Shown here: positions 9,763-64,000 of the stretch, one piece after another
Position numbering within the stretch: position 1 is the first letter of the stretch
How the letters are laid out: every line of letters starts with the position of its first letter
Position numbers and translations under genes: made by a program
Notes under the pieces: model-generated
Databases searched by the model: none
Told to the model about the DNA's origin: nothing
Seen by the model: the letters and a program-made list of their open reading frames with translations, nothing else
Assembly: GCF_963921235.1 (NCBI RefSeq)
Contig: NC_086097.1
Span: forward strand, 63,428,001-63,492,000
Length of the DNA stretch: 64,000 nt
From: Mobula hypostoma
Lineage: Eukaryota
Direction of reading: 5' to 3'

Positions 9763-9991
9763 TGTGGTAAACCATGTATATATGTTGTAACTGGGTTACC
9801 TGTCTGGACACACCCCTCTGCTGACTGCCCCTGTGGCTCCTCCCACAGAGACCTGTATAAAGGTGTTCACCTTGCCCCTCCCCCTCAGTCCAGAGGCAGA
9901 CACTCACTGTGGAGGTCGTATTGTACAGCAAATAAAAGTCTTTCAGTATTTTACCAAACCTCAGTCTTTTGGAATAATTGAAGATGCTTCA
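9763..9991 (+). repeat. Gypsy 5' LTR
   Basis: TGTGG...CTTCA; TATAAA near 9855, AATAAA near 9931; 11 substitutions versus the 3' LTR by manual count. Confidence 0.95.
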
Positions 9992-10017
9992 ATTTTATTC
10001 GCTGTACGTTTTAAAAC

Positions 10018-10425
10018 ATGGAACAGTCTCTGAGACCAGAAAAATTAGACCTCAATCCGCAAACACCTGAAGCTGGAAACGCTTTCGAACTCTGGCTGGC
10101 CTGCTTCAAAGCGTATCTAGAGGAGATTAAAGCCACCGACCCCATAGGGAAGCGCAGAGTTCTACTCTCCAGGGTCAGTCCACGGGTCTATTCGCTGATC
10201 AGAGACCAGCCGAACTACGACGGCGCGATGAACGCACTCAGAAGACAATACCTGCGGCCGATAAACAGCGTCTATGCTCGGCCTCGGCTGCAGCCAGTCG
10301 TGAGTCCGCGAAGTGCTACTTTTGTGGACTGGAGAAGCACCCCCGGAAACGCTGCCTGGCCCGACAAGCTACCTGCTCCAGCTGCGGAAAGAAGGGCCAC
10401 TTCGCCAAGATCTGTAAGTCAAAAC
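10018..10425 (+). pseudogene. gag: Gypsy gag, internally deleted and frameshifted, with two CCHC knuckles
   Basis: ATG at 10018; after a frame jump near 10280, CYFCGLEKHPRKRC and CSSCGKKGHFAKIC at 10314-10415. Confidence 0.85.
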
Positions 10426-10571
10426 CGCGAGCGGGATCGAGCAGCGCCGCGTGCGAGACGTGGGGGTCGCCATCTTCCCTGCCGCCATCTTCCCTGCACA
10501 CCACCACCACGTGCGAGACATGGGGGCGGCCATCTTGGTCGGCGCCACCTCTCACCGCCTACGACCAACGG

Positions 10572-13541
10572 GTGCTCACGGGGCACCCCACCACACCGGA
10601 CCAAGACAGCAACCCCACCCTGGCTTCCGTGACCCTCGACCAAAGCGCTCCCCACCAGCTCGCAAGGTCAATGATGGACATCCTGGTGGAGGGGCACAGG
10701 ACAAGCTGCCTGTTTGACACAGGCAGCACAGAGAGTTTTATCCACCCGGCCACGATGCAGCATTGTGGACTCATGATACGGCCGGTAAGTCGGAGGGTCA
10801 CCATGGCCTCCAGGTCGCATACAACAGACATCCGGGGGGATTGTGTAGCGACACTAGTGGTGCAGGGCACAGAATATCGGGACTTTACATTACTGGTCTT
10901 GCCTCAACTGTGTGCCCCTGTGCTGTTGGGGTTGGACTTCCAGAGCCACCTGAAAAGCATGACAATGAAGTATGATGGGCCCCTCCTGCCAATTACTGTC
11001 ATAAATCCCCTGTTTTGTAGAGATATGTCACGTACCCCGCTACTGACCACACACACACACCGACCCGCACATCCCACCCAACATCATGCCAACTACCACA
11101 CTACTGACACCACTTGCGGCCTCTCCACCCTCAAGATCCCTCCCCCACCGCTGTTCGCCAACCTGACCCCCGACTGTAAACCCATGGCAACTAAAAGCAG
11201 GAGGTACAGCGCGGGGGACAGAGCTTTCATTAAGTCGGAGGTGCAGCGGCTGCTCAGGGAGGGGGTCATTGAGGTAAGCACAAGTCCTTGGAGGGCGCAG
11301 GTAGTCGTTCGGAACGGGGAGAAAAATAGGATGGTCGTGGACTATAGCCAGACCATCAATAGGTTCACGCAGCTCGACGCGTACCCGCTACCCTGCATCG
11401 CGGATATGGTCAATCAGATAGCACAGTACAAGGTGTACTCGACCATAGGCCTAAAATCCACTTACCATCAGCTCCCCATCCGCCGGGAGGACCACCCTTA
11501 CACTGCCTTCGAGGCGGACGGCAGACTTTATCAATTCCTGCGCGTCCCCTTTGGTGTCACGAATGGTGTATCTGTCTTCCAGAGGGCAGTGGACCGAATG
11601 GTGGACCAGTGCCAACTGAAGGCCACGTTCCCATATCTGGATAACATCACCATCTGCGGTCACGACCAGCAGGATCTCGACAACAACCTCCAAAAATTTC
11701 TCCAAGCGGCCAAATCTTTCAACCTCACCTATAACAAGGACAAGTGTGTATTTGGGACCACCCGACTTGCTATCCTTGAGTGTGTCGTGGAGAGTGGAGT
11801 CATTGGCCCTGACCCCGACCGTATGCGCCCCTTGTTGGAACTCCCTCTTCCCAATACCCTCAGAGCCCTCAAAAGGTGCCTGGGCTTCTTTTCATATTAC
11901 GCCCAACTATGCAGACAAGGCCCGCCCCCTGGTCATGTCCACCACATTCCCCCTCTCTGCCGAGGCCCACACGGCCTTCAACCTCATAAAAGGGGACATT
12001 GCCAAAGCAGCAATGCATGCGGTGGATGAGGCCATTCCCTTCCAAGTAGAGAGTGACGCCTCCGACTTTGCGCTGGCTGCTACCCTCAACCAGGCAGGAA
12101 GACCAGTGGCGTTCTTCTCCCGTACCCTTCAAGGCCCTGAAATTCGGCACTCTGCAGTAGAGAAAGAGGCCCAGGCCATAGTGGAAGCTATAAGGCAATG
12201 GAGGCACTATCTTGCCGGCAAAAGATTCACCCTGCTAACTGACCAGCGCTCAGTCGCGTTCATGTTTAATAATCAGCAGCGGAGCAAATCAAAAATGATA
12301 AGATTCTGAGGTGGAGAATCGAACTCTCCACCTACAACTATGACATCATGTACAGGCCTGGGAAGCTCAACGAACCCTCCGATGCCCTATCCCGGGGAAC
12401 ATGCGCCAGCGCGCAGATCGACCGGCTATACGCCCTACATGTAGACCTTTGCCACCCGGGAGTCATCCGGCTTTTCCACTTCGTGAAAGCCCGGAACCTG
12501 CCTTACTCCCTTGAGGAGATCAGGATGATGACCAGGGACTGCCAAGTCTGCGCAGAGTGCAAACCGCACTTCTACCGACCCGAAAAGGCACAACTCATCA
12601 AGGCCACCCGCCCCTTTGAGCGACTGAGTGTTGACTTTAAGGGCCCCCTTCCCTCCATCGACCGCAATGTGTACTTTCTTAACGTAATTGACGAGTACTC
12701 GCGGTTCCCCTTCGCCATCCCCTGCCCCGACACCACTACCACGTCAGTTATAAAAGCCCTGCGCAAGCTCTTCACTCTGTTCAGATACCCATGCTATATC
12801 CACAGTGACAGAGGGTCCTCGTTTATGAGTGACGAGCTGCGCCAATACCTACTGGCTAGGGGAATTGCAACTAGTAGGACCACGAGCTATAATCCCCGGG
12901 GGAATGGACAGGTAGAGAAGGAGAATGGCACGGTGTGGAAAGCCACACTCTTAGCCCTCAGGTCAAAGGGACGGCCGGTCTCCCGCTGGCAGGAGGTCCT
13001 TCCTGAGGCACTCCACTCCATCCGCTCCCTGTTATGCACAGCCACCAATGCCACCCCTCATGAGTGGCTCTTTTCTTTTCCCAGGAAGTTGACCACCGCG
13101 ACCACCCTACCATCTTGGCTGACGTCCCCGGGGCCAGTGCTGCTCCGGAAACATGTGAGGAGCAATAAATACTCCCCGATAGTCGAGAGGGTTCACTTAC
13201 TTCATGCGAACCCCCAGTATGCCTACGTGGTTTTACCTGATGGGCGGGAGGACACGGTCTCCATCCGCGACCTGGCGCCCGCAGGAGCTCCGGGCCCCTA
13301 CCCTGAACACTCCGTGGTGACTATTGACCCCGTACCCACCAATGTATGTACCTACGAGACACCGTACACCCCAAACCCTATACAGACACCACACGACACT
13401 CCCATACCGGGCGAGACGCACACGCACGAGGGATTACCGACGCCTAACGTGCTGGCACCTGAAGTCAGGCCGGAGCCAGCACAACCGCCAACGCTGGTAC
13501 AATCACCGCCGGTGCTACGTAGATCACAGCGACGGACTTGA
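10572..13541 (+). pseudogene. pol: Gypsy pol (protease, RT, RNase H, integrase), split by two frameshifts
   Basis: LFDTGS; SPWRAQVV/RMVVDY/PFGVTNG/YLDN; VESDASD/EKEAQA/LLTDQRS; HHCC, VDFKGP, HSDRGS, GNGQVEK. Confidence 0.93.
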
Positions 13542-13617
13542 CCGCCTGATAGACTTGACCTGTAAATATACTTCTTGTAAATATTGTCAGTCACTTTTTA
13601 AAAAAAGGAGGGGTGAA

Positions 13618-13846
13618 TGTGGTAAACCATATATATATGTTGTAACTCGGTTACCTGTCTGGACACACCCCTCTGCTGACTGCCCCTGTGGCTCCTCCCA
13701 CAGAGTCCTGTATAAAGGTGTTCGTCTTGCCCCTCCCCCTCAGTCCGGGGGCAGACACTCACTGTGGAGGTCGTATTGTACAGCGAATAAAAGCCTTTCA
13801 GTATTTTACCAAACCTCAGTCTTTTGGAGTAATTGAAGGTGCTTCA
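13618..13846 (+). repeat. Gypsy 3' LTR
   Basis: Direct repeat of 9763-9991, preceded by purine tract AAAAAAAGGAGGGGTGAA. Confidence 0.95.
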
Positions 13847-25239: not shown

Positions 25240-27870
25240 TATTCAGTCTCGTAATGTCAGTTCAATGATGGGCACATGAGATTGAGTGATGTTATCCCTT
25301 CTGGTTCAAGAGCCTGATGGTTGAAGGGTAATAACTGTTCCTGAACCTGGTAGTGTGAGTCCTGAGGCTCCTGAACCTTCATCCTGATGACAGCACAAGA
25401 AGAGAGCATGGCCTTGGTGGTAGGGGACCTTGATGATGGATGCTGCTCACTGTAGATGAGCTCAATGGTGGGTTGGGCTTTACCCGTGAAGGACTGGGCC
25501 ATATCCATTACTTTTTGTGGGATTTTCTATTCAAGGGCATTAGTGTTACTGTACCAGGTTGTGATGTAACCACACAATACACTCTCCACTATACAGCTAT
25601 GGAGGTTTGTCATAGTTTTGGATGTCATGCCAAACTTTGAAGGAGAAGAGAGTAGAGGCACTTCGTGCTTTCTTTGTAATTATACTTGCATGCTGGGCCA
25701 CAAACAAGAGAAAACCTGCAAATCCGAGCAACACACACAAAATGCTGGAGGAACTCAGCAAGCCAGGCAGCATCTATGGAAAAAATGTACAGTCGACATT
25801 TCGGGCCAAGACTCTTCAGCAGGATTGGAGAGAAAAAGGTGAGGAGTAGATTTAAAAAGTGGAGGGAGGGGAGAGAGAACCACCAGGTGAAAGGTGAAAC
25901 CAGGAGGGAGAGAGATGAAGTAAAGAGCTGGGAAGTTGAATGGTGAGATGAGGTAAAAGAGGGAAAAGGGGATGGGAAATGGAGAAGGGGGAGGGGACAG
26001 TTGGAGGGCATTACTGGAAGTTTGACAAATCAATGCTCATGCCATCAGGTTGGAAGCTACTCAAACGGAATATAAGGTGTTGTTCCTCCAACCCATGCGT
26101 GGCCTCATCACAACAGCGGAGGAAGCCATGGATGGACATATCAGAATGGGAATGGGAAGTGGAATTAAAATGGGTGGCCACTGGGAGATCCCACTTGGTC
26201 TGGCAGATGGAGCATAGATGCTCAGTGTAGCGGTCTCCCGATCTACAGGAGGCCACACCAGGAGCACCGAACACAGTAAATGACCCCAACAGACTCACAG
26301 GTGAAGTGTCGCCTCACCTGGAAGGACTGTTTAGGGCCCTGGATGGTAGTGAGAGAGGAGGTGTAGGGGCAGGTGTAGCACTTCTTCCACTGGCAAGGAT
26401 AAGTGCCAGGAGGGAGATCAGTGGGGAGGGATGAATGGACAAGGGAGTCACGTAGGGAGTGATCCCTGCGGAAAGCAGAAAGTGGGAAGGAGGGAAAAAT
26501 GTGCTTGGTGGCGGCGGAAGCTTCAGAAATTGTGTGCTGGATGCGGAGGCTGGTGGGGTGAGAGGTGAGGATAAGAGGAACCCTATCCCTGGTAGAGTGG
26601 TGGGCGGATGGGGAAAGAGCAGACAGGCATGAAATGGAAGAGATGCGATTGAGGACATCATTGATGGTGGAGAAAAGGAAACGCCGTTCTTTGAAAAAGG
26701 AGGACATCTCCTTCATTCTAGAATGAAAAGCCTCATTCTGAGAGCAGATGCAGCTGAGATGAAGGAAGTGCGAGAAGGGGATGGCATTTTTACAAGTAGC
26801 AGGGTGGGACAAGGTGTAGTCCAGGTAGCTGTAAAAGTCCATGGGTTTGTGAGAGACATCGGTGTATAAGCTATCTCTGGAAATAGAGACAGTGAGATCA
26901 AGAAAGGAAAGGGAAGTGTCAGAAACGGACCCGGTGACTTTGAGGGCAGGGTGGAAATTGGAGGCAAAGTGGATGAAGTCGACGAGTTCAGCATGGGTGC
27001 AGGAAGCAGCGCCAATGCAGTTGTCGATGTAGTGTAGGAAAAGTGTGGGATGGTCACCAGTGTAGGCTTGGAACATAGACTGCTCCACGTAGCCAACAAA
27101 CAGGCAGGCATAGCTAGGAGCTATGCGAGTGCCCATAGCTACCCCTTTTACACAATTTCTCAAACTTCCGGTAATGCTCCCCCAACCAACCCCCTCCCCC
27201 ATTTCCATTTCCCACCCCTTTCTCCCACTCTCACCTCATCTCACCAACCAACTTCTCAGCTCTTTACTTCATCCCTCCCCCTCCATGTTTCACCTATCAC
27301 CTGGTGGCTCTCTCTCCCGTCCCCCCACCTTTTAAATATACTCCTCAGCTTTTTTTCACCAGTCCTGCTGAAGATGGTTCAGCCCAAAACATCGACTGTA
27401 CTTTTTTCCCATAGATGCTGCCTGGCCTGCTGAGTTCTGCCAGCATTTTGTGTGTCTTACATGCTGGGTCAGGGCAGGTCCTCTGAAATGCTAATACTGA
27501 GGAATTTAAAGTTGCCAACCATCTCCACTTCTGATCCTCTGATGAGGACTGGCTCATGGGCCCCTGGTTTCCTCCTCCTGAAGTCAATAATCAGTTCCTT
27601 GGTCTTGCTGACATTGAGTGAGAGGCTGTTGTTGTGGCACCATTCAGCCAGATTTTCAATCTCCCTCCTATATGCTGATTCGTCACCACCTTTGATTTGT
27701 CCAATAACAGTGATATTGTCAGCAAACTTAAGCATAGCATTGGAGCTGTGCTTAGTCTCACAATCTTTAGTATAAAGCAAGTAGGGCGGGGGGGCTAAGC
27801 ATACAGCCTTGGGGAGGAGATATTGCTGCCAATCCAAAATGACTGGGGTCTGCAAGTGAGGAAATCAAAC
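25240..27870 (-). mobile_element. Rex1/Babar fragment interrupted by a Penelope element
   Basis: ORF 27469-27855 KFADNITVIGQI...LNVSKTKELIIDFRR; 3' part at 25240-25700. Confidence 0.8.
25701..27455 (-). mobile_element. Penelope-like element with an inverted copy of its 3' terminal repeat at the truncated 5' end
   Basis: GVAMGTRIAPSYACLFVG, FLHYIDN, GIY-YIG region; 27150-27455 is an inverted homologue of ~25725-26025; 16-bp TSD CTT(G/A)CATGCTGGG(C/T)CA at 25685-25700 and 27456-27471. Confidence 0.92.
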
Positions 27871-48926: not shown

Positions 48927-49094
48927 AATGCACAAATCAGTCACCATCGCTACCTAATTCCAAAACAACCACTGAATTCCATTCCCTCAGTAACCAGTGA
49001 CTGTAAATTCCACTCCCTCAGCGACTGTAAGAACTAAGGTAGCAAATCATTTAGATCAATGCTACCTTTATTATGTGGTACTCAGGGTGGTCAC

Positions 49095-49250
49095 CTGCTG
49101 ATGACATGGTTGATGACCCCAGTGTACAACCCAAACGTACACACAGGATGGATGCGATAAATATCAGAAATACAATACAGCGGAGTACCGTAACACAGGA
49201 ATAATGGCTCTCGTGTTCGGTGTGCTCTGGAAGATTTACAATGAAATGTA
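49095..49250 (+). mobile_element. ancient Harbinger transposase remnant
   Basis: WLMTPVYNP then, in another frame, KYNTA..........FGVL with the spacing of the Harbinger YN.AH..TR..IE..FGVLK.RF block. Confidence 0.45.
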
Positions 49251-50036
49251 TGATGCGTTGGAAAACCTGGATTATGCAAGTTCAGCTATCACCACCAACT
49301 ACACAGTAAGCATCTGAGGAACATGACCAAGAGGAAAGGAGAAGGCCGATTTTTCACAGGCTACAGAATGTTTGGTATTATGGCTGCTAACTGTTTGTGG
49401 AGGAAGGAAAGCATGTCGGGGCCGAGAATGCCCAGGTGCAGATTGCAACATCTCGATGTGGGGACCAGCAGTCTGAACTGATTAGTTACCACAGCAAGGG
49501 TCCTGGACAAGATGATGAATGCCACATTTCTGACGAGTACTAGAGGATTCATGCTCCATGCAAGGACAAAGATTTTCCCCTGCACCTCCGCACCCTCGTC
49601 ACCCACTGGTAAACAGAATACCAACGCGGTTATGAACTCGACATCCATGATTGCGGCACAGACACTGAGTGGGCATTCCTTGATTTTTCATTTTTGTTCG
49701 TTCGGTTTTTGAGTTGTAGCAACTGATGACAGGGCCAGCATTTTTTTCCCCATAACTAGTGGCACTCATGGTGAGCTGCTCCTCAAAGAGCTGCAGCCTT
49801 TCTCATACTGTTGGGTAGGGAGTTCCAGAATTTGGTTTCAGAGACAGCAAAGGAACAGCAATATATTCCCAAATGAAGACAGTGTACAATTTAGAGGGGG
49901 AGTGTGTAGTTGGCAATGGTCCTATTCATCTACTCTCCTTGTCTATCTTGGTGGGAAAGGATGCATAATAAATCTTTATTGTCATGGCTAAAGACAATGA
50001 CATTGCAGTGCTACACCAGTCCATGCAAAACATATA

Positions 50037-50194
50037 CAAGAGAAAATTTGCAGAAGCTGGAAATCTGAGCGACACACACAACATACTGGAGGAACTCAGC
50101 AGGCCAGCTACCATCTATGGAAAAATTCAGGGTCCATCATCCTCTAGATGCTGCCTGGCCTACTGAGTCCCTCCAGCATTCCGTGTGTGTTGTT
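50037..50194. mobile_element. mini Penelope terminal hairpin insertion
   Basis: Inverted Penelope termini; perfect 15-bp TSD CATGCAAAACATATA at 50022-50036 and 50195-50209. Confidence 0.85.
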
Positions 50195-50445
50195 CATGCA
50201 AAACATATAGTTACAATGGATGTGGTACGGCTCAATTTTTTTAAAAAACCCATGTTTTGGAAATCCCATAGATTTGGGAGGGGCTGTCAGAGTACAGTAT
50301 CCTTTTATCTGCTTGTAGGGGATAGAATGTCACATGCCATCTGCTAATCTATGCCTGAATGTTGGCAAATTCTCACTGTAGGCAGGCAAGGACTGTTGCA
50401 TTACTGGGATACTGTGAATGGAATTGGATATTGTGAAATCACAGT

Positions 50446-51219
50446 TGTTGGCCAGAAAGAATGACAATCTACAAATCAGTGAATTCATATGAATCAAGGA
50501 CAGTGGAAGCAGTCTTTGTTCTTTTCACATGCTTGGGGATGGAGGCTGCCATTTTGTGAAGTCACTTTATTCTCCATTTTGGGAGCTTGACATGCTGGGC
50601 TTGATCAGTTTTAAAGAAGACACAATGATTAATCACAAGGTAATCTGCTGGACTGGAGATCATTTCCAAATAAGAAGTGTTTTTGTGAGATGTTATTTGG
50701 TTGGCTATAACATGCAGGTTTGTGAAAGTTGGGGTTGATGCCTGCCTGAAATGATTCGAGCTGATTGAGAACAAAGAGCCATAAATTATCGACAAACCAA
50801 TAACAAGGTGTTAAAGGACAGACACATGGCCTGTGGCCAATGACACTGGAATGCGATATTTGAATTGATAAGGAATGGATATAAAAGTGGATGCTTTGTG
50901 TGTGTGCTGGTAGCGGTAACTTGGAAGAATAACCATCGCAGATACAAACGTAAGCAACCCTGTGTAGAACACATGGCGAGTGAATCGGGACAATGAGGAA
51001 CGCTTGGCCAGCATAAACTCCTTTGCCCGGGTAATACTTTTGCTATTCTTTGACTCTTCAGGAGAGTCAGGGATACTTAGTGGGTATGCACACAAGGTAT
51101 TTAGTGTATGAATTCACGTACATATTAGTTTAAACAATAAAGGTACTTGTCAGTAAATACAGATCTCTCTGTGCCTCACTAAGCATCGTTATAAGTAGAA
51201 GTAGTATTTTTTTACAACA
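50446..51219 (+). repeat. provirus 5' LTR (774 bp)
   Basis: TGTTGG...ACAACA; CCAAT boxes near 50797 and 50837; TATAAAA 50880-50886; AATAAA 51136-51141. Confidence 0.95.
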
Positions 51220-51223
51220 GAAT

Positions 51224-51245
51224 TGGTGTCCCTGGGTGGGCTCGA
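51224..51245 (+). promoter_or_regulatory. primer-binding site for tRNA-Asn(GTT)
   Basis: TGGTGTCCCTGGGTGGGCTCGA versus the complement of vertebrate tRNA-Asn 3' end TGGCGTCCCTGGGTGGGCTCGA: one mismatch, at a CpG. Confidence 0.9.
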
Positions 51246-51958
51246 GGTTAAATCTCCTGTTGAGACAGCAAGGGACTCGAGCCGGACCATGTGGGTGAGA
51301 AACAGAGAGATCGGGGAGGCTGGGTAGCTGGTTAGTACTGACCCAGGATGAAGAATTTAGGGAAACCCACAAGTCTGAAGGACTTGGATTGTTTGATTGG
51401 AGGGGATTCCTCCAGAGGTACGTATTGGGGAAATGGCCACAATACAGGGAGTATGCTGAACACACCAGCGGTGAAGGCGGTGAAGTGTTTCTTAGAATTG
51501 CCAAAGGGAAATTGTCAGATAAGGAATTTAAGCGACTACTGAAGCTAGTAGCAGTCGCCTGCCTCATTGAGGAGTTAATAAGATATCGGCAAAAAGCCGA
51601 CACTGAGCCAGATAAGTTAGAAGGCGAAAACAAAAGAATCAGAAAGGTGTTCGAAGATGAAAACAGAATGCTCCAAAAGGAGTTAGAAATCCTCAAGGGA
51701 AATTTTACAGATTTACAGGGACAAAGAAGTATGGATTTGGTGCATATGAATCAATTTCAGCTGAAATGCGAGAAACTGGTTAAAGAACAAAGTAAACGGA
51801 AAGAAGCAGCTAATTTGGCCAAGAACCAGGCAGAGGAATTAAAGAAACAGTGCAGTGATTTAAAAACAGCTATAAATGTGATACAGAAATCAGTTACTGA
51901 AAAGAGAAGTTATACTAGTGATCATACAAAGTGTTTAAACAGATACAAAAGCTGCAGG

Positions 51959-52332
51959 CAACACACTCAAAATGCTGGTGGAACGCAGCAGGCCAGACAA
52001 CATCCATAGGAAGAAACACAGTCGACATTTCGGGCTGAGACCCTTCGTCAGGATTAACTGAAAGAAGAGATAGTAAGAGATTTGAAAGTGGGAGGGGGAG
52101 GGGGAGATCTGAAATGATCCCCTTCCTGTCTTCCCCTATCATTTCGGATCTCCCCCTCCCCCCCCCCACTTTCAAATCTCCTACTGTCTCTTCTTTCAGT
52201 TAGTCGTGACGAAGTGTTTCGGCCCGAAACGTCGACTGTGCCCCTTGCTGTCTGGCTTGCTGCGTTCCACCAGCATTTTGAGTGTGTTGCTTGAATTTCC
52301 AGCATCTGCAGATTTCCTCGTGTTTGCAGTTT
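51959..52332. mobile_element. Penelope terminal-repeat hairpin inserted in gag
   Basis: ~160-bp arms in inverted orientation, homologous to 7300-7520; degenerate 15-bp flank duplication (11/15) at 51944-51958 and 52333-52347. Confidence 0.88.
52020..52058 (-). ncRNA. minimal type I hammerhead ribozyme motif, core intact
   Basis: Minus strand: AATC CTGACGA AGGGTCTCAGCCC GAAA TG TC GACT. Confidence 0.7.
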
Positions 52333-53508
52333 CATAAAAACTGCTGGACCAACTTGCTGCACAGAGAGGAATAATATGTGCTTTTGGATCTGAAAGAGGG
52401 GAGGAGAGTGAATATGCAGATACAGATTGGAACGGTTTAACAGATGATGCAACTAGATATGGTTGTGATAATGATGAAGCGCTTTTTCCTGAGTATCCCC
52501 ACCCGCATACAATGCGAAGGAATTGTCGGTGCCAACGGCACCACTAGCCCCTCTAGTTACTACTAGAGAGGGAGGAGCTGGGACAGGAAATCAAAACCAG
52601 AATATAACATACACTCCGTGTGGAGTACAGCAGCTCAGAGACATTGCCAAAGATATCGGGATTTGTGGGTTCGGAGATGACCCTCGGGAACTGTTTCAAG
52701 CAATTAATCATCAGAGAATAATACACGGCCTAGATGACACCGAGGAAAGGAAATTGATTACAATGTGTTTACATCCAAATACAGTATACACTCGGCTTTG
52801 CCAGATATACAACAACAAGGTGGGGGTACAAATAAGGAATTAAAGACGGAAATATTGACTGTTACGGGTATTAACATAGGGGACCCAGTAGAGGCGCTGG
52901 TAAAATGTTACCAGAGGAGAGGTGAACATCCCACTGCGTTTGCGTCCCATTTATGGACAGTGTTCCAAGGAGCATATGGACCAGCATTAGATCGAGACCA
53001 TTTAGGACCAGAGCCCTCAAATAGATAGTTAAGGACACTGGTGTCTCACTCCACCGATGAATCTAAAAAGGTATTAGAAATGTTTGATCCCACTGACCCT
53101 ACACATAATGAGGCATGGATACTGAGGAAAATGAGTAGAGCATGGGAAAAGGAGGCACAAAGGCCAAATAAACCCGGTAATGGGAAAGTGCTGCCTGTTG
53201 GAGGTAAGGCAACTGCCTGGAGAAATGAGGGTAGGGGACCCACCCCAAATATCATCCCACCACACTATCAAGTGACCAGGAAAACCAGAGGAGATGAAAC
53301 AGTGTCGAGAACAGGGAGACTTGGAGATGGAGTATTTAAATGCTATAACTGTGGTCAAGAGGGACACATCAAGAGGGAATGTCCAAACCTGAGAAGTGGG
53401 AGACTAGAGCAAGGAGGTTTGACCTTGGAGGGGCCAGATAGAACTAGCCCACAAAATAATGTGGTGGAGACAGCGCCATCTAGGGGATTGTACCCCAAGC
53501 TTCAATGA

Positions 53509-56500
53509 TGGTGTCAGGCCTCACCAACATGGGTGTATGACACAAGGTGGGACAAGACCGGAAGACTTCTAGTAAATGGTAGGGTCAAAGGCCGCCCTGT
53601 TACCTTCGTATGGGACACTGGAGAATCCTGAACCACCGTCAACACCACTAACGTAACTAATGTAAACTAGGAAGTACAAAGTAAAATTATCTTAAGTGGA
53701 TTTACAGGACATTCACAAGTGGGACATGTGTGTGAACCCTTAGAAGTTAGAATAGGAGACATGGAATGTTAGAACATTCCATAGTGTTAGTTGAATTACC
53801 TCGGGAGCAGGAACATATACTGGGGAGTGATTACATGGCCAAAGCAGGGCTTTGTTTTGATCCAGTTAACTGTATGATTTGGCGAATGCCATCTGGTATG
53901 TATGACATATGCCACAGTCAGATTCCAGTAGGTGAATATCAGGATAGAATATGCACCATGGGTGAAATGTGGATAAAACCAGAGGAGATGAGCAATGATC
54001 ACATGGTGCAGCAAATCATTGCACAGAACTTGGGGGCATTTGCACAGTACAAGCATAACTGCAGGAGGATGGCTGGCAGTGTGTGCATACAAGGTCCAGA
54101 CCCCAAACCACAGAAGCAATATGGGTTTCCAAAAAAACCTGAGGAAGATGTCGGTAAGATAGTACAGAGTGGCACAACAAGGGGTACTGAGGCCAGTAGC
54201 CTCAACTAATAACTCACCCATATGGCCAGTGAGGAAACCAGTTGGTAGTTGGAGACTGACAATAGACTATCGAGAGCTGAATAAAGTAACCCCTTGAACA
54301 GCCCCAACTGTAGCAACTAACCCAGAGACAGTAGTCAAACAGAATGAAAGAGCGCGATGGTTTACAGTTTTAGACATAAATAATGGATTTGGTCTATCTC
54401 ACTAGAAAGAGAGTGTGAATACAAGTTTGCATTTACTTTTTAGGGACAGCAATATACATGGACTGCCGTACCACAGGGGTTTCATAATTCCCCATCTATA
54501 TTTCACCAGCATTTAGGGGAAGGGTTAAAACAGTTCTCAAAGCCTGAATGCTTGGTCTAATACGTAGATGATCTACTCCCACAGACTGAAACCAAGCAAG
54601 AACATTATCAGCTATTGACAGAACTGCTGCAATTATTACGTGCATTGGGACTGAAAAAGCACAGGTGATGAAACAAGAAATTAGTTATTTGGGAATGACC
54701 TTGACACCGGGAACAAGAGAAATTGGTAAATGAAGAGTAGAATCAGGTATGAAACTGCCTATTCCCCAAGATGTGAAAGGGCTGAGGCTAATAGGCCACC
54801 GTAGGGATCACATTGATGAATTTTCCACCAAGACAGCTCCTTTAATGGAGCTACTGAAAAATAATGTGGCGTGGGGATAGAAATCAGAACACACCCAGAC
54901 CATCACAGACCTGGAGCAAGCACTGGTCAGGGCGCCTGCTTTAAAAACTCCAAATCCGAATGAGCCATTCTCATTGAGGTGGCTACAACTGACACCACCC
55001 TCTCAGCAGTGCTATTACAGGAGACGCATGGGAAGTTAAGAGCAGTAGCGTATGCATCGTGAATGCTCTCACCAGTAGAACAGGGGTATACTGTATGTGA
55101 AAAACACTTGTTAGCGATTTTCTGGGTGGTACAACATTTCACTTACATAGTGGGATTTAATCCATTTACAATACTGACGGAACACACCCCCATACAATTG
55201 CTGTTAGATGGAAGGATTAAAGGTGGTTCAGTAAGCCAGAACAGAATTGCCAAATGGACATTGCTGTTGCAAGGGAGAAATATAACTGTAAAACGAGTAA
55301 GTACCACCACTATGTCAGCTGACAACCTGGTGTACCAAGGTAGTGAACATGAGTGTCACGTCATGATAGCAAGTGATCCCAAGGGACCATTTGTATCAAA
55401 ATAAAAAGGAGGGGATAGAGGCAAATCAGACAAAGTAATGCCTGAGAACACAAAGGAGAAGGGAAAACCCTATTTTAAAATTTTTGTAGGTGGATCCTCA
55501 TCAGTACAGGAAGGTGGAAGAAGAACTGGGTGTAGCGTGTATATAGAGGATGAAAATGGCCAGGAAAGGTACAATATAGCTTTAAAGCTAACCAAAACCA
55601 TGAGAGCACAGAAAGCAGAATTGGCAGCTGTAGCATATGTGGTTAGCCACCCAGACTGTTTTCCACCTGGATCAGTCATACACTCTGATAGTATGTATGT
55701 TTGTAACAGCCTTACAGAACATTTGCCTCTGTGGGAAGCAAGAGGGTTTGTTTCAGTTGACAGAAAGCCCCTCCCATCTACTGCTCTGTTGCAATATAAA
55801 TTTGAAGAAGCAAAGGGGAAAGAATACAGAGTTGTAAAGGTGAAAGCCCACTCTAATTCGTCCCCTAAGGGGAATAGGAAGGCTGATGAGTTAGCAAAGC
55901 AAGGTGCTTTAAATAGGCAGGAATGGCAGCCACAGATTGGGGAGATGGGAAGGCAGAAGGAACAACAGGTTAAGGTTATGAATTTAACCAAGGAGCAGAA
56001 GAAAGATAAAGAATTTAAAAAAATAATAGAAGGAGTAGGGTCAGAAATGTATGAAGAGCACAAGGGTGTACATGTTAAGGATGGAGTAGTCCTATATGAA
56101 GGAAAGTTTGTGGTCCCAGAGGGAGGAAGAAATCAGATGATCCACTGGTACCATGATTTATGGGGACACCAGGGATCTGAAAGCACCCTGGAAAAGATAA
56201 AGGAGGCGTGTTGGTGGCCTAGGATGAAGGACGATGTGGAACACTATGTCAAGAATTGTTTGATTTGTGCACAATATAATCCTGATGGAAATGTAAAGGA
56301 ATGAGACCTCTGACATACCAGACCGGTGGAAGGGCCATGGACTAACTTGTAGATAGATTATGTTGGACCCTTGCTACCCACCACAGGAGGGTACAAATAT
56401 ATTCTTGTAGTAGTAGATACTTTCACCAAATGGGTGGAAGCTTTCCCAACTAAGACTAACACAGCCAAAGCCACCACAAAAATCTTACTAGAAAGGGTTT

Positions 56501-57416
56501 TTACTCGCTGGGATTACCTCAGAGTATAGAGTCGGATAGTGGCACACATTTTACAGCCCAGATAATGCAAGATGTCATGGCACTTTTAGGGATTAAGCAG
56601 AGATTTCATGTACCCTATAGACCACAGTCTAGTGGAATTGTGGAAAAGATGAACCAGACTTTAAAAAATATGATGGCCAAAATGGTGCAACAACATCGAA
56701 CAACATGGCAAGTATTTTTGCCTTATGTGTTGATGATAATAAGGAATACAGTGGCACCTTCGACAGGTTACACCCCTTATAAACTCATGACCCGAAGAAG
56801 CATGAGAGGGTTAAAGGAGTTGTTAGGATTAGATTCGTCAGAACCTGAAATAGATGGGATTGTGTCAGAAAAGTGGGTACAACAGTTGGTAGAGACAGTG
56901 AAGGAGGCCAGTTATGTGGCAGCCCATCAAATAGGAAAGAAGAAGCAACAGAGTAAAGCCTACTTTGACTCAAAAGTCAGTCCCATAGAATTAAACCCAG
57001 GACAAAGAGTAATGATTAGAATACACCAACCCACTTCATTTTTAAATCCAAGGTTTGCAGGGCCCTATGAACTCATAGACAAAGCAAATCCATCAGTATA
57101 CAGGGTACTAACTTCTCCAGATAAAAGTGGATGGTACCACATCAACGAGTTGAAATTGGTGGGGGAGAAACAGAAAAATTCTCATCATCCACATGTAACA
57201 ATTGATGTACATGATGGTCCAAATTTTGGAGACTTGACAATCGATGTACATGATAGTTCTGATTTGGAGGATCTGAGTTTGGAACAGTTATTCCAGGAAG
57301 ATGGCAACAGATCTGACCAAGGAGGAGTTTTTCCATTTTCTTGGTCTGAAAAACAGAGGAGGTTTGTAAAGAAAATAAGGAGAATAAATACACTGGTTCC
57401 TGCCTCCACATTCTGA
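53509..57416 (+). pseudogene. pol: provirus pol: protease, RT, degenerate RNase H tether, second RNase H, integrase; many stops and frameshifts
   Basis: FVWDTG (DTG 53614-53622); NSPIWPVRKP.GSWRLTIDYRELNKVT; PQGFHNSP; YVDD 54561-54572; AQKAELAAV/SDSMYV/VKAHS...GNRKADELAK; HHCC; IDYVGPL, SDSGTHF, QSSGIVEKMN; GPY. Confidence 0.93.
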
Positions 57417-57550
57417 AACGAAATTGGGTGAGAAAAGACAGACGACTTGAGTCCAAAGACAAATGAGAACCCAGATTGCATGGGTTGGAAAACCAGATAG
57501 AAAATATGGACTTAAAGTAATTTAAGATTGGAACTGGAAATAAGAGCAGA

Positions 57551-57573
57551 TATTACCCTTTGTGTGTTTACAG
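57551..57573 (+). promoter_or_regulatory. candidate env splice acceptor
   Basis: TATTACCCTTTGTGTGTTTACAG ending 12 nt before the env ATG at 57586. Confidence 0.6.
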
Positions 57574-58864
57574 ATTTAATTCAACATGAAGAAAATAATG
57601 TATTTTATGGTGATGGAATTGAACATGACTGGGACCTTATTTAGTTGTGCTTCAGAAACATTACTGTAGATGAACTTGTCAACAACAACTTCATTATATG
57701 AAGACTATTCGGTGATCAAAAGCAATTTTTCTCAACGGACACGGGTAATACGGGCACATGTGAAAGAAATGGAAGACTTGAATTTGTATTATGCTGGGGT
57801 AGATGGTTTGATGTGCATAGATAAAACATTAAATATTCCAGAGGGTACAAAGGTACAATTCCTATGTAATAAAATTTTAGAAGTGACATTGTTTTGTAAC
57901 CCAGAAGGGATAATTATTAGTCAGTTTTTAGGCCCAATTATTGAGCAACCTTCAGGTGATGATGGCCACAGTAAGATTACAGTTCTGTGGGATCACTCTC
58001 ATGTGAATATCGAGAGGAGTAGTGATCTACACAAGAGATATATCGATTGGGGTGGCCACATCAAGCGTTTCTCAAAGATTGGTTTTATTGTTATAAACTG
58101 TCCACAGGAGGATGTAGTACACAGGGAGAGTAGAATGGAAAGGACACTAAGGGACACGGGTAAGAGTTTCTGTCAAGGCCCAAGTCCTTTCAGGGTTTTC
58201 AAAACTAATAGGAAATTGACCACTCCACAACGCCAATTAACTGAACCTACACCAGAGCCTAAATGTAGTGAGACTCAACATAATACAAATGGGGTAGGAT
58301 TAGTGTTAGAAGATACAGCAGAACTTGTCACTTTGGTACCATCTACAACAAAACAATTATTTACTCACCTTTAGGAGACAACTAAGCCGGAGTGAATTTA
58401 GGTCGGTCAAAAATAGAAAGAAGAGAGGACTATTGGAATTAGTGGGAGCAGGTGACGCATCAGGGATAGCAACGGTCAATACCTTAGATATAGCAGAATT
58501 GGAAAATCAGATACAGTCTCTTCAGCTAAAAATGCGGGATATTACTGGGGAAAATTATCAGGATCAGATGCAAACTAGTGAAATCGGTCGGATTACATCA
58601 CAGGTAACGCTGGATTCACTTAAATTTCTGAAACCACTTCAGGATACAACGAATTTGATAATTGACCGCATAGACCTCCTATCTAAAGGAACACATAAAG
58701 CGGAGATCTGTGCTATATATACTAGTTGGTTGCTCGCTATGGTTGGTACGAATTTATTACAGCTTGATGCACGTCAAGTACCAAATTGGATATCAGATGA
58801 GCAATTGATAGAATGGGTTGTAGAAGAGGTTCCCTTATGTCATATTAGAAGTCTTACACTAACC

Positions 58865-60044
58865 CAGGGGTCCCCAACCTTTTTTGCATTGTGGACCAGT
58901 TTAATATTGACAATATTCTTGCGGACCGGCCGACCCGGTGGGGGGGTGGGGTAGAACAGACAAGAGTAGCAGTCAAATACGTTGTGTTTACCCCGAGAAA
59001 GACTACAATGACCATGACGCCTTGCGCAGGCACCAGTGCGCATGTGTGTACCTCCCGATTTTTTTCTACAAATCGTTTTTGGCGATTCTGTACGGGGGGG
59101 AGTTGTTAATCACGACCGAAATATAGGTGATAAGTGGCTAATACACTCAATTTCGTTTCTAAAAAGGTTTATCTAACGAATTTAATATTAAACACACAGC
59201 GCATATTTTCCTCGTATGAATATAATAAGAAGTCAATTATCAGGGGATCTTGAAGTAAGTGTTGAACGAACTTTCAGTAGAAGTGGTAGAGGCAGGTTCG
59301 ATATTACGATTTAAAGAAAAATTGGATAGATATATGGACTGGAAAGGAATGGAGGGTTATGGGCTGAGTGCAGGTCGGTGGGACTAGGTGAGAGTGGCGT
59401 TCGGCATGGACTTGAAGGGCAGAGGTGGCCGTTTCCATGCTGTAATTGTTATATGGTTATATAAGTCCATAGCATAACATTTTAAGTAACGTTTCAATAT
59501 TAAACACACAGCACATATTTTCCCTGTATGAACATATAAAATCATTGCAACACACCAGTATCGCTGAATTAGTTGGGAGCCCTGGGATTTTTTCCCTGCA
59601 ACAAGACGGTCCCATCGAAGGGTGACGGGAGACAGCGATACGCGAAGGGGGTTCCTTATGTCCAGTCTATTCCGCAGTTTAGTTTTCGTTGCATTCATTG
59701 CAGAGATATGTTGGAAATGGAAGCAACGTTTTCAGTGCTTTCGTGGCTATCTCAGGATATTTAGCCTTGACTTTGATCCAGAATACCGGCAGAGATGTTA
59801 TGTCAAACATACTTTTCAGCCCGCCGTCATTTGCAAGCCGGAGGAGTTGATCTCCTTCCCGTGCTGACATGGATGACGCGCGGGTAATGACCTCGCATGC
59901 GTTCAGGCTCAACAATGGGCGTGACAAGGAATGAGGAAAGGTGCAGCTGACTCCTATCGCCAAATCATATCGTTTCCTTGCAGCCCGGTAGCGCATGCTC
60001 TGCAGCCCGGTACCGGTCCGCGGCCCGGTGGTTGGGGACCGCTG
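58865..60044 (-). mobile_element. non-autonomous hAT (Charlie/Buster-like) transposon inserted in env
   Basis: TIRs CAG(G/C)GGTCCCCAACC; perfect 8-bp TSD CACTAACC (58857-58864, 60045-60052); transposase C-terminus FWIKVKAKYPEIATKALKTLLPFPTYLC...TKLRNRLD. Confidence 0.93.
59275..59462 (+). mobile_element. CR1 3' end inside the hAT element
   Basis: VVEAGSILRFKEKLDRYMDWKGMEGYG followed by a CR1-type 3' UTR. Confidence 0.75.
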
Positions 60045-60859
60045 CACTAACCAATAGAGTACTGCGTACTTGTGATGATGGTAAAAGGAGGTTTTATGTG
60101 GGTGCAGTACTCCACATTCCCCATGATGGAAATAATTTAACTTACTCCTTGAAAAGGGTTCACAATGTAGTTAAGTATCATGAGAATACTTGGATATCCT
60201 TAAGCAGCCCACCAAAACTTGCTATTGCTATGAATGGTATTGGAAAAGGGATAGATTTATCGAAATGGCATCGAGGGGGAAACCACTGGGCTTATCTAGA
60301 AGAGATGACGTGACAAAAACTTGTAGATTGTGGTTTCAATACTTATGAGAATTGTTCATTGTCTATTTTACCTGTGAATAATGATTTTTTTCTGCAGTAT
60401 GCACTGGTGGGATGAACATATTAATGGAGGAGGCAAAGGAGAGAATTCATCAGTGGACTGAACGTACAAAATTTATTAAGGCACATGCTGAGAAGGCAAA
60501 TGAAATATTGAGTGACTCAGACGTTTGGGATAAATTTTGGAATTGGGGATCAAATGTTCAGATACATCTATGGGTGAGGATAATCTCACATGCTGCTGTA
60601 ATATTAATTTTTTGTACACTGATGATTGTATTATTTAATCTGTATCAACTTAGAAGATGGAAGGCTGAAGTTATGCAAAAGGTCAAGGGTGATGATTTTG
60701 CAATACTGAAAAACCAATGGCCAGTATAAAAATTGTATGAATTTAGTAAGTAAATGTTATAATGTAAGCGCAGCACACCCGCTGGGGATCCGTGGCAATC
60801 CAATGGATGGTCAACAGAATAGAGGAGGATAGTAATCCTAAAATAAATATCTTTGGATC

Positions 60860-60872
60860 AAGAGGAGGGAGG
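60860..60872 (+). promoter_or_regulatory. polypurine tract
   Basis: AAGAGGAGGGAGG directly abutting the 3' LTR. Confidence 0.9.
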
Positions 60873-61693
60873 TGTTGGCCAGAAAGAATGACAATCTACA
60901 AATCAGTGAATTCAAATGAATCAAGGACAGTGGAAGCTGTCTTTGTTCGTGTCACATGGATGGAGGCTGCCATTTTGTGAAGTCACTTTATTCTCCATTT
61001 TGTGAGCTTGGCATGCTGGGCTTGATCAATGTTTTAAAGAAAACACAATGATTCTTCAGGTAATCTGCTGGACTGGAGATCATTTCCAAATAAGAAGTGT
61101 TTTTGTGAGATGTTCTTTGGTTGGTTATAACATGCAGATTTGTGAATGTTAGGGCTGATGCCTGCCTGAAGTGATTCAAACTCATTGCTGATTGAGAACC
61201 AAGAGCCATAAATTATCGACTGTCACTTGATCAGAAGAGGGCAATAAATTGATGCTGGCTTGGAGCAGAGCCAATAACAAGGTGTTAAAGGACTGTCACA
61301 TGGCCTGTAGCTAATGACACTGGAATGCGATATTTGAATTGATAAGGAATGGATATAAAAGTGGATGCTTTGTGTGTGCTGGTAGCGGTAACTTCAAAGA
61401 ATAACCATCGCAGATACAAACGTAAGCAACCCTGTGTGGAACACATGGCGAGTGAATCGGGACAATGAGGAACGCTTGGCCAGCGTAAACTCCTTTGCCC
61501 GGGTAATACTTTTGCTATTCTTTGACTCTTCAGGAGAGTCAGGGATACTTAGTGGGTATGCACACAAGGTATTTAGTGTATGAATTCACGTACTTGTTAG
61601 TTTAAACAATAAAGGGACTTGTCAGTAAGTACCGATCTCTCCGTGCCTCACTAAGCATCGTTATAAGTAGAAGTAGTATTTTCTTTTACAACA
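60873..61693 (+). repeat. provirus 3' LTR (821 bp)
   Basis: Direct repeat of 50446-51219, with an extra ~50-bp block at ~61221-61270. Confidence 0.95.
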
Positions 61694-64000
61694 CAGTGAA
61701 CTTTTCCACTCCTACTTTTAGTAAGGAAAGAAAGTCATTGATGAAGCAGCTGAAGGTGCTTGGTCCTAGCACACTGCCCCTAAGGAGCCTCTGCACAGTC
61801 CTGCAGGGTGTCCTGGGGCCAAATTGATTGACTTCCAACAATCACAATCATCTTCCTTCTGTTTGTGGAATGATGCCAACTCGATGGATGACAGTCACCC
61901 AAGGTGATCAAGCCTTTGAAATGCACTCATCTCAATTTACTGAAGTCCCTTCATGTCATACTCAGTCAAAATTTGCCTTGAATCAAGGTAGTTACTTCGA
62001 ACTCAGCTCTGGAATTTAACCAGGCGTCTGATGCTCTAGGGAAACCAAAAGTGGATGTAAATCAAATTTCAAGTTTAAGTTCATTGTCACAGGCATACAA
62101 ACCCAGGATATAAATTCCACGGAAGTTCCCTTTTAGCAGCAGCAGTACTGGTTGTTGGTGAGAAAGTGCCTCTAGACAGCACAATCGATGATTGCTTCCG
62201 TCACTTAAGGACTGACTGATTGGGTAGTAAGCAGCTAAATTAAGTTTTGTCCTGCTTTCTGAGAGCAAGATTTACCTGAGAATGTAGATGGGTGGATGTT
62301 TTAAATGCACTGGATCAGCTTGATCAGAGCGGCAGATTATTCTGGAACGCAGCTGTTCAGTACAACAGCTGGGATGTTGTCTGGTCCCATAGCCTTTATT
62401 GTACCAGTGCTCTCGGCTTTTCCTTGATATCAAGAGTGGTGATTTGAATTTCCTAGAGCATACCTTCTGAAATGGTGGGGAGGAAGCCAAGATCTTAATA
62501 ATTATAAAAATTATTAACCATTTAATTGTCCATGACATTAATGACCAGATGTGATAGAACTTTAGAGCTTTGACCTGATCTGTAGATTGTGCCTTTGTTT
62601 AGCTCTGTGCTGTTTTTGGTGTTTAGCATACATGTAGTTCAGACTTGAAGCTTCATTAGGCTGACACCTCAGCATATTTGCACGTGTGCTCCCAGCATAC
62701 CCTTCTGCAGTCTTCATTGCTTGATCCCCTTACTTGATAGTAATGGAGAGTGAGAGATATTCTGCACCACAAGGTTACAGACGCTGTTAGTATACATTTC
62801 TGCTGCTGTTAGTGCCCATAGTGTCTGATCAACAATGAATTTTGAGCTACCAGATCTGTTCCAAGTCCACCTCATTTAGCACAATTATAGTGTCACACAA
62901 CATAATGGAGGGTGTTCTTTGGGACTGTCTCCACAAGGACGTCTTCATCAATGAATGAATCAGCCACTTGTTAATTTATGGGCAAAGGTCACATAGGGCC
63001 TATCTATAGTGTTGCTTTATTCACCACATGCCACAGACACTGTCTGCAAGCAACTGTATGTCCTTCAGGACTCGGCCTGCTTGGCCTTTGGCAGTGCTAC
63101 CGAGTGCTTCTTAGCAACCAGACAATGAAGTCCCCACCCAAGGTATGTAATGCTCTGCCAACTTTCATGGCTTCTTCCAAGTGTTGTTTAATGTGGAGGA
63201 GCACTAGTCAGGAGGAGATAGCCTTGCTGCAGGTCTGTCCAGCTGATGGGATATAGACATGCCTAGGGATCGGAATGGAGGTGTCTTGCATAGTATCTGT
63301 AAAGTACAATTCTGTAAGATGTCAGAAGGCTAGGTACAGTACAATGACAGCCAGCCCCCGGGGTTACATATTATCCCTTTCCTGAGAATTGACCATGAGC
63401 CGATTCCTCAGGAAGTGAGAAATGCCCATTTCTAGTTTTACCCATATGATATGAAATACTATGAATCTCCAGAATACTTGCATCCAGAAATATAATGGAG
63501 CAGCCTGATGTTCTTCTGCAGTCTACAGAGATTGGATTACATTGACATGTCCAATTTTGATGTGTAAGTCAATGCTAAGAGGTCAACTGATGTTACCCTT
63601 TCTCTGTTAGAATGTCACAGTAATGCTCCAACCAAGCAGGGTGCTAAGCAATTTGATCCTTGATCCTTTAGAAGCCAAATAAGAGTCAATGGCATAGTCA
63701 ATTGTACTGGAATGGAAGCCATAATCAAATTTCTAATTCAAAATGTTTATTAGGCCCATAAATCAAAATGGTCACTGTTTCCAAGTTGGAATTGAAATTT
63801 TCCAAGTCTACTTGTGCTCTTTCTTATCCTGTCAGAGAATAGCTCCACTTTGGATGAAGTAACTATTATTGTTGAATAGCTGACAGCGTGCACGCTGTGG
63901 GAAGTGAGTATGAGGTGTAAGGCAGTACTAAAGTGTGTGAGGGGACGGTAGATTATCTGAGTGTTGAATATATCCTATGTAACAGACATAGTTAGCAGGT

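What the first reader, a model, noticed from the sequence alone, without database searches (positions are those of the whole stretch)
54973..55910. Two tandem RNase H domains; the first keeps a Gypsy-like fold with its acidic residues replaced
Domain 1 (54973-~55270: IEVATT..LSAVLLQ..AVAYAS..VEQGYTVCEKHLLAIFW..ILTEH) aligns by eye with Gypsy RNase H. Compare DAS / EKEAQA / TDQ in the Gypsy element at ~12050-12250, where this copy has VAT / EKHLLA / TEH. Domain 2 (~55474-55910) is cellular/retroviral-type RNase H1 with the His loop (KVKAHS..GN.KAD). This resembles an intermediate stage in the decay of the ancestral RNase H into the retroviral connection/tether domain.
Basis: partly seen in the sequence, partly recalled or inferred. 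Interest (0 to 1): 0.7.

Follow-up and report, generated by a model that had tools for sequence, protein, structure and literature searches.

The report
Ordinary retroviral tether in decayed provirus
The two RNase H domains are the standard tether-plus-RNase H pair of retroviruses, here in a broken endogenous retrovirus probably from a ray, whose tether is unusually little diverged but no more so than in groups already described.

Summary
Both domains are real: Pfam RT_RNaseH (E 4.5e-20) at 54976-55272 and RNase_H (E 2.8e-18) at 55477-55908. They lie in the pol of a complete but decayed provirus (LTRs 50446-51219 and 60873-61693, 4-bp TSD, gag-pro-pol-env). Domain 1 is the ordinary retroviral tether. 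It groups with all retroviral tethers apart from Gypsy RNase H (100/99). D/E/D is intact in 0 of 55 retroviral rows and 17 of 17 Gypsy rows. The closest relative shares the window's A/H/E, so the loss is inherited, not decay of this copy. RT places the element among canonical retroviruses near Ovex1-like, frog and coelacanth ERVs, not among lokiretroviruses (AU p 0.0005). What survives of the 'intermediate' idea: this tether is 30% identical to Gypsy RNase H, against 16-21% for gamma/epsilon, SnRV and foamy. Loki-type tethers reach 28-32% here, and 32% is already published. A weak lead is an env that may be F-type rather than gamma-type. Three look-ups of this scan's earlier notes found nothing comparable. 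Verdict: new member of a known kind, low interest.

The parts
50446..51219 (+). 5' LTR (TG...CA, 774 bp), preceded by TSD CAGT at 50442-50445
51224..51241 (+). primer-binding site starting TGG, 4 bp after the LTR; tRNA-Asn-like from recall only, not tested
51299..52009 (+). coiled-coil-looking open frame at the start of gag (only Pfam hit TPR_MLP1_2, E 0.057)
51955..52293 (.). inverted pair of a dispersed repeat (SINE-like) inserted in gag
   Evidence: self-blastn
52400..53508 (+). rest of gag, frameshifted; one CCHC zinc knuckle at 53338-53388; stop at 53506-53508 in frame with pro
   Evidence: (PF00098 E 1e-08)
53509..53900 (+). protease region, DTG at 53614-53622, broken; end approximate
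   Evidence: by eye
54099..54975 (+). reverse transcriptase in four frame pieces, YVDD at 54561-54572
54976..55272 (+). domain 1: tether (degenerate Gypsy-type RNase H); former D/E/D positions hold Ala 54982, His 55105, Glu 55180; stop at 55060-55062
55477..55908 (+). domain 2: retroviral/cellular-type RNase H with His loop; first acidic position lost in this copy (55489-55491)
56113..57140 (+). integrase: H2C2 zinc finger 56113-56283, rve core, C-terminal part with GPY at 57060-57068; broken; end approximate
57586..60729 (+). env: furin-like RKKR at 58415-58426, fusion-peptide/heptad region from 58427, membrane anchor near 60590-60650; start approximate; interrupted by an insertion
58865..60044 (.). 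1180-bp DNA-transposon-like insertion in env with terminal inverted repeats and 8-bp TSD CACTAACC (hAT-like by inference)
60860..60872 (+). polypurine tract
60873..61693 (+). 3' LTR (821 bp), followed by TSD CAGT at 61694-61697
12031..12306 (+). comparison only: RNase H of the separate Gypsy element, D/E/D intact (PF17917 85.0 bits)

Best explanation
The interval is the tether-plus-RNase H part of pol in a full-length, decayed endogenous retrovirus. It belongs to the unclassified basal retroviruses (neither class I nor class II) related to Ovex1 and SnRV, most likely in a ray genome. In the active virus, domain 2 would have degraded the RNA strand of RNA:DNA hybrids and handled primer generation and removal (inferred from family membership). 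Domain 1, the ancestral Gypsy-type RNase H, had lost its catalytic triad before lokiretroviruses and canonical retroviruses split. It served as the non-catalytic connection between the RT thumb and the RNase H, helping to position the substrate (inferred from the HIV-1 work summarised in PMC4408406 and PMC10508981; not tested here). This lineage, like lokiretroviruses, has diverged less from Gypsy than gamma/epsilon, SnRV or foamy viruses, so its tether still aligns by eye. This copy is dead: stops, frameshifts and insertions run throughout.
For: Shown: Pfam domains and their order. LTRs, TSD, PBS, PPT and env. RT tree: window inside the canonical retrovirus clade 100/99, loki-motif rows a separate clade 100/100; forcing the window with them is rejected, p-AU 0.00047. 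Tether tree: 60 retroviral tethers form one clade 100/99 apart from 17 Gypsy rows, with the window on a short branch beside P0007. D/E/D intact in 17 of 17 Gypsy and 0 of 55 retroviral rows; P0007 has the same A/H/E. RNase H tree: window with the SnRV and gamma/epsilon side, 98/93. Long relatives named from frogs, Xenopus and coelacanth carry PF17917/PF17919 plus PF00075. Sibling contigs from 4 of 4 organisms laid cover the whole stretch, and none of the 40 listed best-supported differences falls in the three tether codons (180 further rows not shown).
Against: The 18-row RT group holding the window and the Ovex1-like P0018 has only 87/93 support and splits in the tether and RNase H trees, so it may be a basal grade and the exact lineage is open. 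SnRV does not group with the window in the RT tree. No ERV-L, class II or Odin sequence was in the trees. The best PDB match of domain 2 is a foamy-virus RNase H (2lsn, E 2.5e-07), barely ahead of E. coli RNase HI (3.5e-07). The host is inferred from one env hit (Hypanus sabinus, 46%). The non-catalytic role of domain 1 is inferred from residues, not assayed.
Confidence: 0.88

Rival explanations
1. A lokiretrovirus, which would be the first in a cartilaginous fish: Gypsy-like tether, coiled-coil (smc-like) ORF before gag, F-like env.
For: The tether is as Gypsy-like as in loki-type proteins. There is a coiled-coil-looking ORF at 51299-52009. Atlas leads for env point to Fusion_gly and Baculo_F clusters. 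The best PDB hit of domain 2 is a foamy RNase H, and PMC7947760 groups loki RNase H with foamy RNase H.
Against: The RT tree and AU test reject it. The RT motif is PQGFHNSP, while the loki RTs read in the supplement have PFG-type motifs. The RNase H tree separates the window from the loki and foamy rows.
Confidence: 0.04
2. A true evolutionary intermediate: a lineage branching below other retroviruses whose first domain keeps partial activity or was inactivated separately.
For: Short branches and 24-33% identity to Gypsy RNase H across 18 rows. One acidic residue is kept in the window (Glu 55180), and single acidic residues in 4 of the 17 related rows. Identity to Gypsy is about equal in tether and RT here (0.29 and 0.30) but lower in the tether of gamma/epsilon rows (0.195 against 0.26).
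Against: No row keeps the triad (0 of 18). Loki-type tethers branch deeper and are as Gypsy-like. The long branch to all tethers (0.4, 100/99) shows the change came before the split. The relatives were chosen by similarity to this tether, which inflates its apparent conservation.
Confidence: 0.06
3. Domain 1 is a Gypsy RNase H captured later by recombination, or it lost its acidic residues by neutral decay of this copy.
For: The copy is heavily decayed, and a Gypsy element lies in the same window.
Against: The tether groups with retroviral tethers, not with Gypsy or the window's own Gypsy element. The substitutions are shared with P0007, whose frame is open over RT and tether. The tether codons are not among the listed sibling differences.
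Confidence: 0.02

Closest known systems
Tether + RNase H of Retroviridae (described in PMC4408406 and PMC7947760, which cite Malik and Eickbush 2001; that paper not read)
   Same: Degenerate Gypsy-type RNase H lacking DEDD, followed by a His-type RNase H, between RT and IN.
   Different: The tether is less diverged from Gypsy (30%) than in gamma/epsilon-type (17-21%), SnRV (21%) or equine foamy virus (16%).
Ovex1/SpeV- and SnRV-related unclassified ERVs (PMC2717909, PMC4299795; clade Huo of PMC6001957; CmiERV lineage I of PMC4422223)
   Same: RT groups loosely (87/93) with P0018, which carries the Ovex1 motifs quoted in PMC2717909. RT motifs resemble SnRV. Gag zinc knuckle, GPY motif and an in-frame gag-pro stop are present.
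   Different: It is not sister to SnRV (P0097) in the RT tree; 37% identity to SnRV over the RT core. The tether is much less diverged than SnRV's. The env shows no CX6CC and has a long transmembrane subunit.
Lokiretroviruses (PMC7947760) and Odin retrotransposons (PMC9040795)
   Same: Dual RNase H with a tether 27-32% identical to Ty3 RNase H; lokis also have a coiled-coil smc-like gene and an F-like env.
   Different: RT placement with loki-motif rows is rejected (p-AU 0.0005); different RT signature; RNase H not on the loki/foamy side; Odin has no env.
Plant Tat elements with dual gRNH-aRNH (PMC4408406, PMC10508981)
   Same: Degenerate native RNase H plus an added one.
   Different: Their added domain is archaeal-type with Arg; here it has His, and the RT is retroviral.
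Frog, Xenopus and coelacanth Pol proteins annotated 'NYNRIN-like' (P0005, P0153-P0155, P0008, P0006)
   Same: Closest named Pol relatives, 40-42% identity over tether plus RNase H for P0005, P0006 and P0008; same domain order and degenerate tether.
   Different: Long open frames in tetrapod and coelacanth records; the names are automatic labels, not a classification.

Membership tests
Retroviridae, endogenous (canonical clade) | LTRs with TG...CA ends, TSD, PBS and PPT | tested here: met
Retroviridae, endogenous (canonical clade) | gag-pro-RT-tether-RNase H-IN-env order | tested here: met
Retroviridae, endogenous (canonical clade) | RT inside the canonical retrovirus clade | tested here: met
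   100/99 with SnRV, equine foamy virus and gamma-type rows; no class II, ERV-L or Odin rows in the tree
Retroviral tether domain | RNase H-like domain between RT and RNase H without the DEDD core, descended with RT | tested here: met
Retroviral tether domain | RNase H fold in three dimensions | tested here: inconclusive
   single-sequence model pLDDT 35.7; sequence match to Ty3 Pol at this stretch only 13.9 bits
Retroviral tether domain | no nuclease activity | not testable with these tools
   inferred from residues
Lokiretrovirus | RT in the loki clade | tested here: not met
   loki rows identified by motif match to the PMC7947760 supplement, not by the published sequences themselves
Lokiretrovirus | RNase H grouping with foamy viruses | tested here: not met
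Lokiretrovirus | Env similar to Mononegavirales F (PF00523) | tested here: inconclusive
   no PF00523 hit; Atlas leads below the tool's bar
Odin retrotransposon | no env gene | tested here: not met
   env present
ERV3 / ERV4 (Table 1 of PMC4299795) | 5-bp TSD, no gag zinc finger, no GPY/F motif | tested here: not met
   4-bp TSD, one CCHC, GPY at 57060
Ovex1/SnRV-related unclassified ERVs | RT grouping with Ovex1 or SnRV | tested here: inconclusive
   with Ovex1-like P0018 at 87/93 only; SnRV (P0097, matched by eye to the supplement) apart
Ovex1/SnRV-related unclassified ERVs | some members have a gag zinc finger and/or GPY/F motif; gag and pro-pol in one frame | tested here: met
   the gag stop could also be a decay stop
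Tat/Chronos/Archon dual RNase H elements | added RNase H of archaeal type with active-site Arg | tested here: not met
   His in KAHS; PF00075
Ty3/Gypsy (single active RNase H) | D/E/D intact, no second RNase H | tested here: not met

The most novel reading that the evidence does not exclude
This is an undescribed basal lineage inside canonical retroviruses that keeps two ancestral states together. One is a tether still alignable with Gypsy RNase H. The other is a long F-type (paramyxovirus/baculovirus F-like) Env, known so far from lokiretroviruses and, by structure, foamy viruses. F-type Env would then span loki, foamy and this lineage. That would favour it as the original retroviral envelope, with gamma- and beta-type Env as later forms, and make the four env-origin scenarios of PMC7947760 testable. 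The tether would also give a second marker for rooting Retroviridae, which PMC9040795 found impossible with canonical tethers.
Probability: 0.3. Interest if true: 0.55.

Novelty: new member of a known kind. Interest (0 to 1): 0.25.

Why it matters
The dual RNase H is a hallmark of all retroviruses and its origin is well described, so the finding as posed changes nothing. Two modest uses remain. First, tethers of this basal group align well enough to build a tree that matches RT, which extends the lokiretrovirus observation into the canonical clade. Second, the env of the same provirus may be F-type, which would bear on where retroviral envelopes came from. That second point is only a lead.

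Tried and rejected
Lokiretrovirus was my first reading; rejected it. Recapture of a Gypsy RNase H, or copy-level decay of the tether: rejected. AlphaFold of tether plus RNase H gave pLDDT 35.7 and was not searched. AlphaFold of the env relative P0268 gave pLDDT 37.7, and its fold search found 0 matches at E <= 0.001; neither says anything. PDB and Pfam searches of P0268 gave nothing usable (GP41 E 0.21 only). A word-based search of longer proteins with the window stretch found 1 protein, a Gypsy Pol. No whole genome was held, so copy number and host could not be read directly. The cluster look-up for names of the ten closest hits could not be made; P0003, P0004 and P0007 remain unnamed. No Atlas result exists for the tether plus RNase H stretch. 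No RNA holder was listed. ARAGORN found 0 tRNAs in the window and Rfam 0 families in 49000-63000, so the PBS tRNA is untested. Look-ups of earlier scan notes gave 0, 1 unrelated and 0 findings. Literature searches for this ERV in rays or for its env type showed no paper on it in their listings; the library lacks most subscription papers, and Repbase and Dfam were not searchable. A long-branch join of P0160 with foamy P0249 was disregarded.

Full report
Verdict. The two domains are real, but they are the ordinary tether plus RNase H of a retrovirus, in a dead provirus. The only unusual feature is how little the tether has diverged, and that degree is already published for other groups.

Observation. 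Pfam gives RT_RNaseH PF17917 (72.2 bits, E 4.5e-20, 54976-55272), RT_RNaseH_2 PF17919 (50.3 bits), RNase_H PF00075 (66.9 bits, E 2.8e-18, 55477-55908) and Integrase_H2C2 downstream. The Gypsy element near 12030-12300 scores 85.0 bits on PF17917 and keeps D/E/D. The Gypsy acidic columns map to Ala 54982, His 55105 and Glu 55180. The first motif is therefore one residue further on than stated, and the third position is still acidic. The copy has a frameshift just before domain 1 and stops at 55060 and 55402. Its second domain has lost the first active-site acidic residue, which 32 of 35 aligned relatives keep (the script printed 83 of 151 proteins). In the four runs laid, 85-98% of depth differs from the window in that codon, so this lesion is particular to the copy.

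Surroundings. The interval lies in a complete provirus of about 11.2 kb. LTRs are at 50446-51219 and 60873-61693 with TG...CA ends and a 4-bp TSD CAGT, with a PBS at 51224 and a PPT at 60860. Inside are gag with one CCHC knuckle, protease, RT, tether, RNase H, integrase with a GPY motif, and env. A SINE-like inverted pair splits gag and a 1180-bp transposon-like insert splits env. The LTRs differ by 32 substitutions in 762 aligned bases (K2P 0.043). That gives roughly 10 to 100 million years using the mammal and shark rates quoted in PMC4422223, so the age is poorly fixed. The family is multi-copy: 464-754 contigs were laid per run in 4 of 4 runs from four organisms. The host is probably a ray. 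The only env hit is a Hypanus sabinus protein (46%, E 1.8e-38), and PMC11089739 reports that clade III ERVs dominate in cartilaginous fish. This is inference.

Is the substitution family-wide? HMMER over 1.84 billion representatives gave 4238 hits at E <= 0.001, of which 150 were listed. The closest tether, P0007 (69%), has the same A/H/E. In the tether alignment, D/E/D is intact in 17 of 17 Gypsy rows. It is intact in 0 of 18 rows of the window's group, 0 of 8 loki-type rows, 0 of 24 gamma/epsilon-type rows and 0 of 5 others. None of the 40 listed sibling differences falls in the three codons, though 180 rows were not shown.

Placement. I first read the element as a lokiretrovirus, because PMC7947760 describes a tether 32% identical to Ty3 RNase H, an smc-like gene and an F-like env, and found none in 3 chondrichthyan genomes. 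The RT tree (72 rows, 275 columns) puts the window inside the canonical clade (100/99) as sister to P0007 (100/97). Loki-motif rows form a separate clade (100/100), and forcing the window with them is rejected (p-AU 0.00047). The loki rows were labelled by motif match to the paper's supplement, and SnRV (P0097) by eye against the same supplement. The window falls in an 18-row group (87/93, under the bar) with frog, Xenopus and coelacanth Pols (named). That group includes P0018, which carries the Ovex1 motifs quoted in PMC2717909. The group splits in the other trees, so it may be a grade, and SnRV is not its sister. The 4-bp TSD, zinc knuckle and GPY motif exclude ERV3 and ERV4 as tabulated in PMC4299795, which leaves Ovex1- and SnRV-related ERVs unclassified. 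The RNase H tree (53 rows, 1 dropped) puts domain 2 with SnRV and gamma/epsilon (98/93), not with loki and foamy. Against that, its best PDB hit is a foamy RNase H, by a negligible margin over E. coli RNase HI. ERV-L, class II and Odin were not in any tree.

How intermediate is the tether? In the tether tree (77 rows, only 122 columns) all 60 retroviral tethers form one clade apart from Gypsy (100/99). Loki-type rows branch first and the window lies among canonical rows (97/86). Mean identity to 16 Gypsy RNase H domains is 30% for the window, 24-33% for its group, 28-32% for loki-type, 17-21% for gamma/epsilon-type, 21% for SnRV, 16% for equine foamy virus and 37-49% among Gypsy. PF17917 scores agree. 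Twelve Gypsy proteins score 100-142 bits, 9 of the window's close relatives 54-80, 4 loki-type 70-88, 12 gamma/epsilon-type 31-51, SnRV 46 and foamy 26; three unplaced rows score 27, 59 and 66. Part of this is general slowness, since RT identity to Gypsy is 30% for the group against 26% for gamma/epsilon. The relatives were also selected by similarity to this tether, which biases the comparison. So the gradient is real, but it is a gradient of drift after inactivation, not of catalytic loss.

Mechanism. Shown: domain order, loss of the triad, shared ancestry with other tethers. Inferred from family knowledge (passages of PMC4408406 and PMC10508981): the tether is a non-catalytic connection that helps orient the RNA:DNA hybrid, while the His-type RNase H does the cleavage. 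This copy can do neither.

Env lead. The window env and its relative P0268 lack CX6CC and CXXC, and P0268 has about 400 residues between the furin site (291) and the membrane anchor (about 693). That is far longer than a gamma-type TM subunit (recalled). Atlas features of the window piece scored 0.93 to Fusion_gly clusters, but with recognition 1693, below the tool's 2300 level. The Atlas model of P0268 (pLDDT 0.48) matched Baculo_F and F0 clusters at TM 0.34-0.44, under the bar. Pfam, PDB, AlphaFold and Foldseek added nothing. Foamy Env is already known to resemble paramyxovirus F (PMC12390576), so even if true this extends a known pattern.

Literature seen. PMC7947760: main text parts 1-3 of 4, supplement parts 1, 74 and 76 of 82, plus searches; the supplement was cut at 300 of 318 pages. 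PMC9040795: Results section and passages. PMC4422223: part 1 of 2. Passages only: PMC4408406, PMC6001957, PMC11089739, PMC2717909, PMC8278194, PMC4299795, PMC13524379, PMC12390576, PMC10508981, PMC5210030, PMC4131045. Malik and Eickbush 2001 was not read. Their unread supplements may already list this family. Searches showed no paper on this ray ERV or on its tether in their listings, which does not show that none exists.

Scores. Interest 0.25; new member of a known kind. Most novel reading left open: a basal canonical lineage with a Gypsy-like tether and F-type Env, probability 0.3, interest 0.55.

Noticed in passing
window 57586-60729; P0268: The env has no CX6CC and a long transmembrane subunit, with weak Atlas leads to F-type fusogens. 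Its one relative found, a Hypanus sabinus gene (LOC132401028, 745 aa), has an uninterrupted frame; whether it is a young provirus or a host-retained gene was not examined.
   Followed up: partly
window 58865-60044: A 1180-bp insertion in env with terminal inverted repeats and an 8-bp TSD, hAT-like by inference.
   Followed up: partly
window 51955-52293: An inverted pair of a dispersed SINE-like repeat (80% identity between arms) splits gag; further copies lie near 7300-7500, 25700-25900, 27300-27460, 44700 and 50054-50195.
   Followed up: partly
window 51299-52009: A coiled-coil-looking ORF at the front of gag, reminiscent of the smc-like gene of lokiretroviruses although the RT is not loki; only a sub-threshold Pfam hit.
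   Followed up: partly
window 53506-53508: gag ends in TGA in frame with pro, as described for Ovex1 and SnRV (stop suppression); it could also be a decay stop.
   Followed up: no
P0012: A relative with RT, tether and integrase but no Pfam RNase_H hit: either an element that lost the second RNase H or a gene-model artefact.
   Followed up: no
P0018: An Ovex1-like Pol with a degenerate RT active site but an intact RNase H motif is among the nearer relatives of the window.
   Followed up: partly
window 57198-57275: A 39-bp tandem duplication in the acidic tail after integrase.
   Followed up: no
window about 9900-13800: A separate Gypsy element with a single RNase H that keeps D/E/D; a repeat near 9900 and 13760 looks like its LTRs (by eye).
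   Followed up: partly
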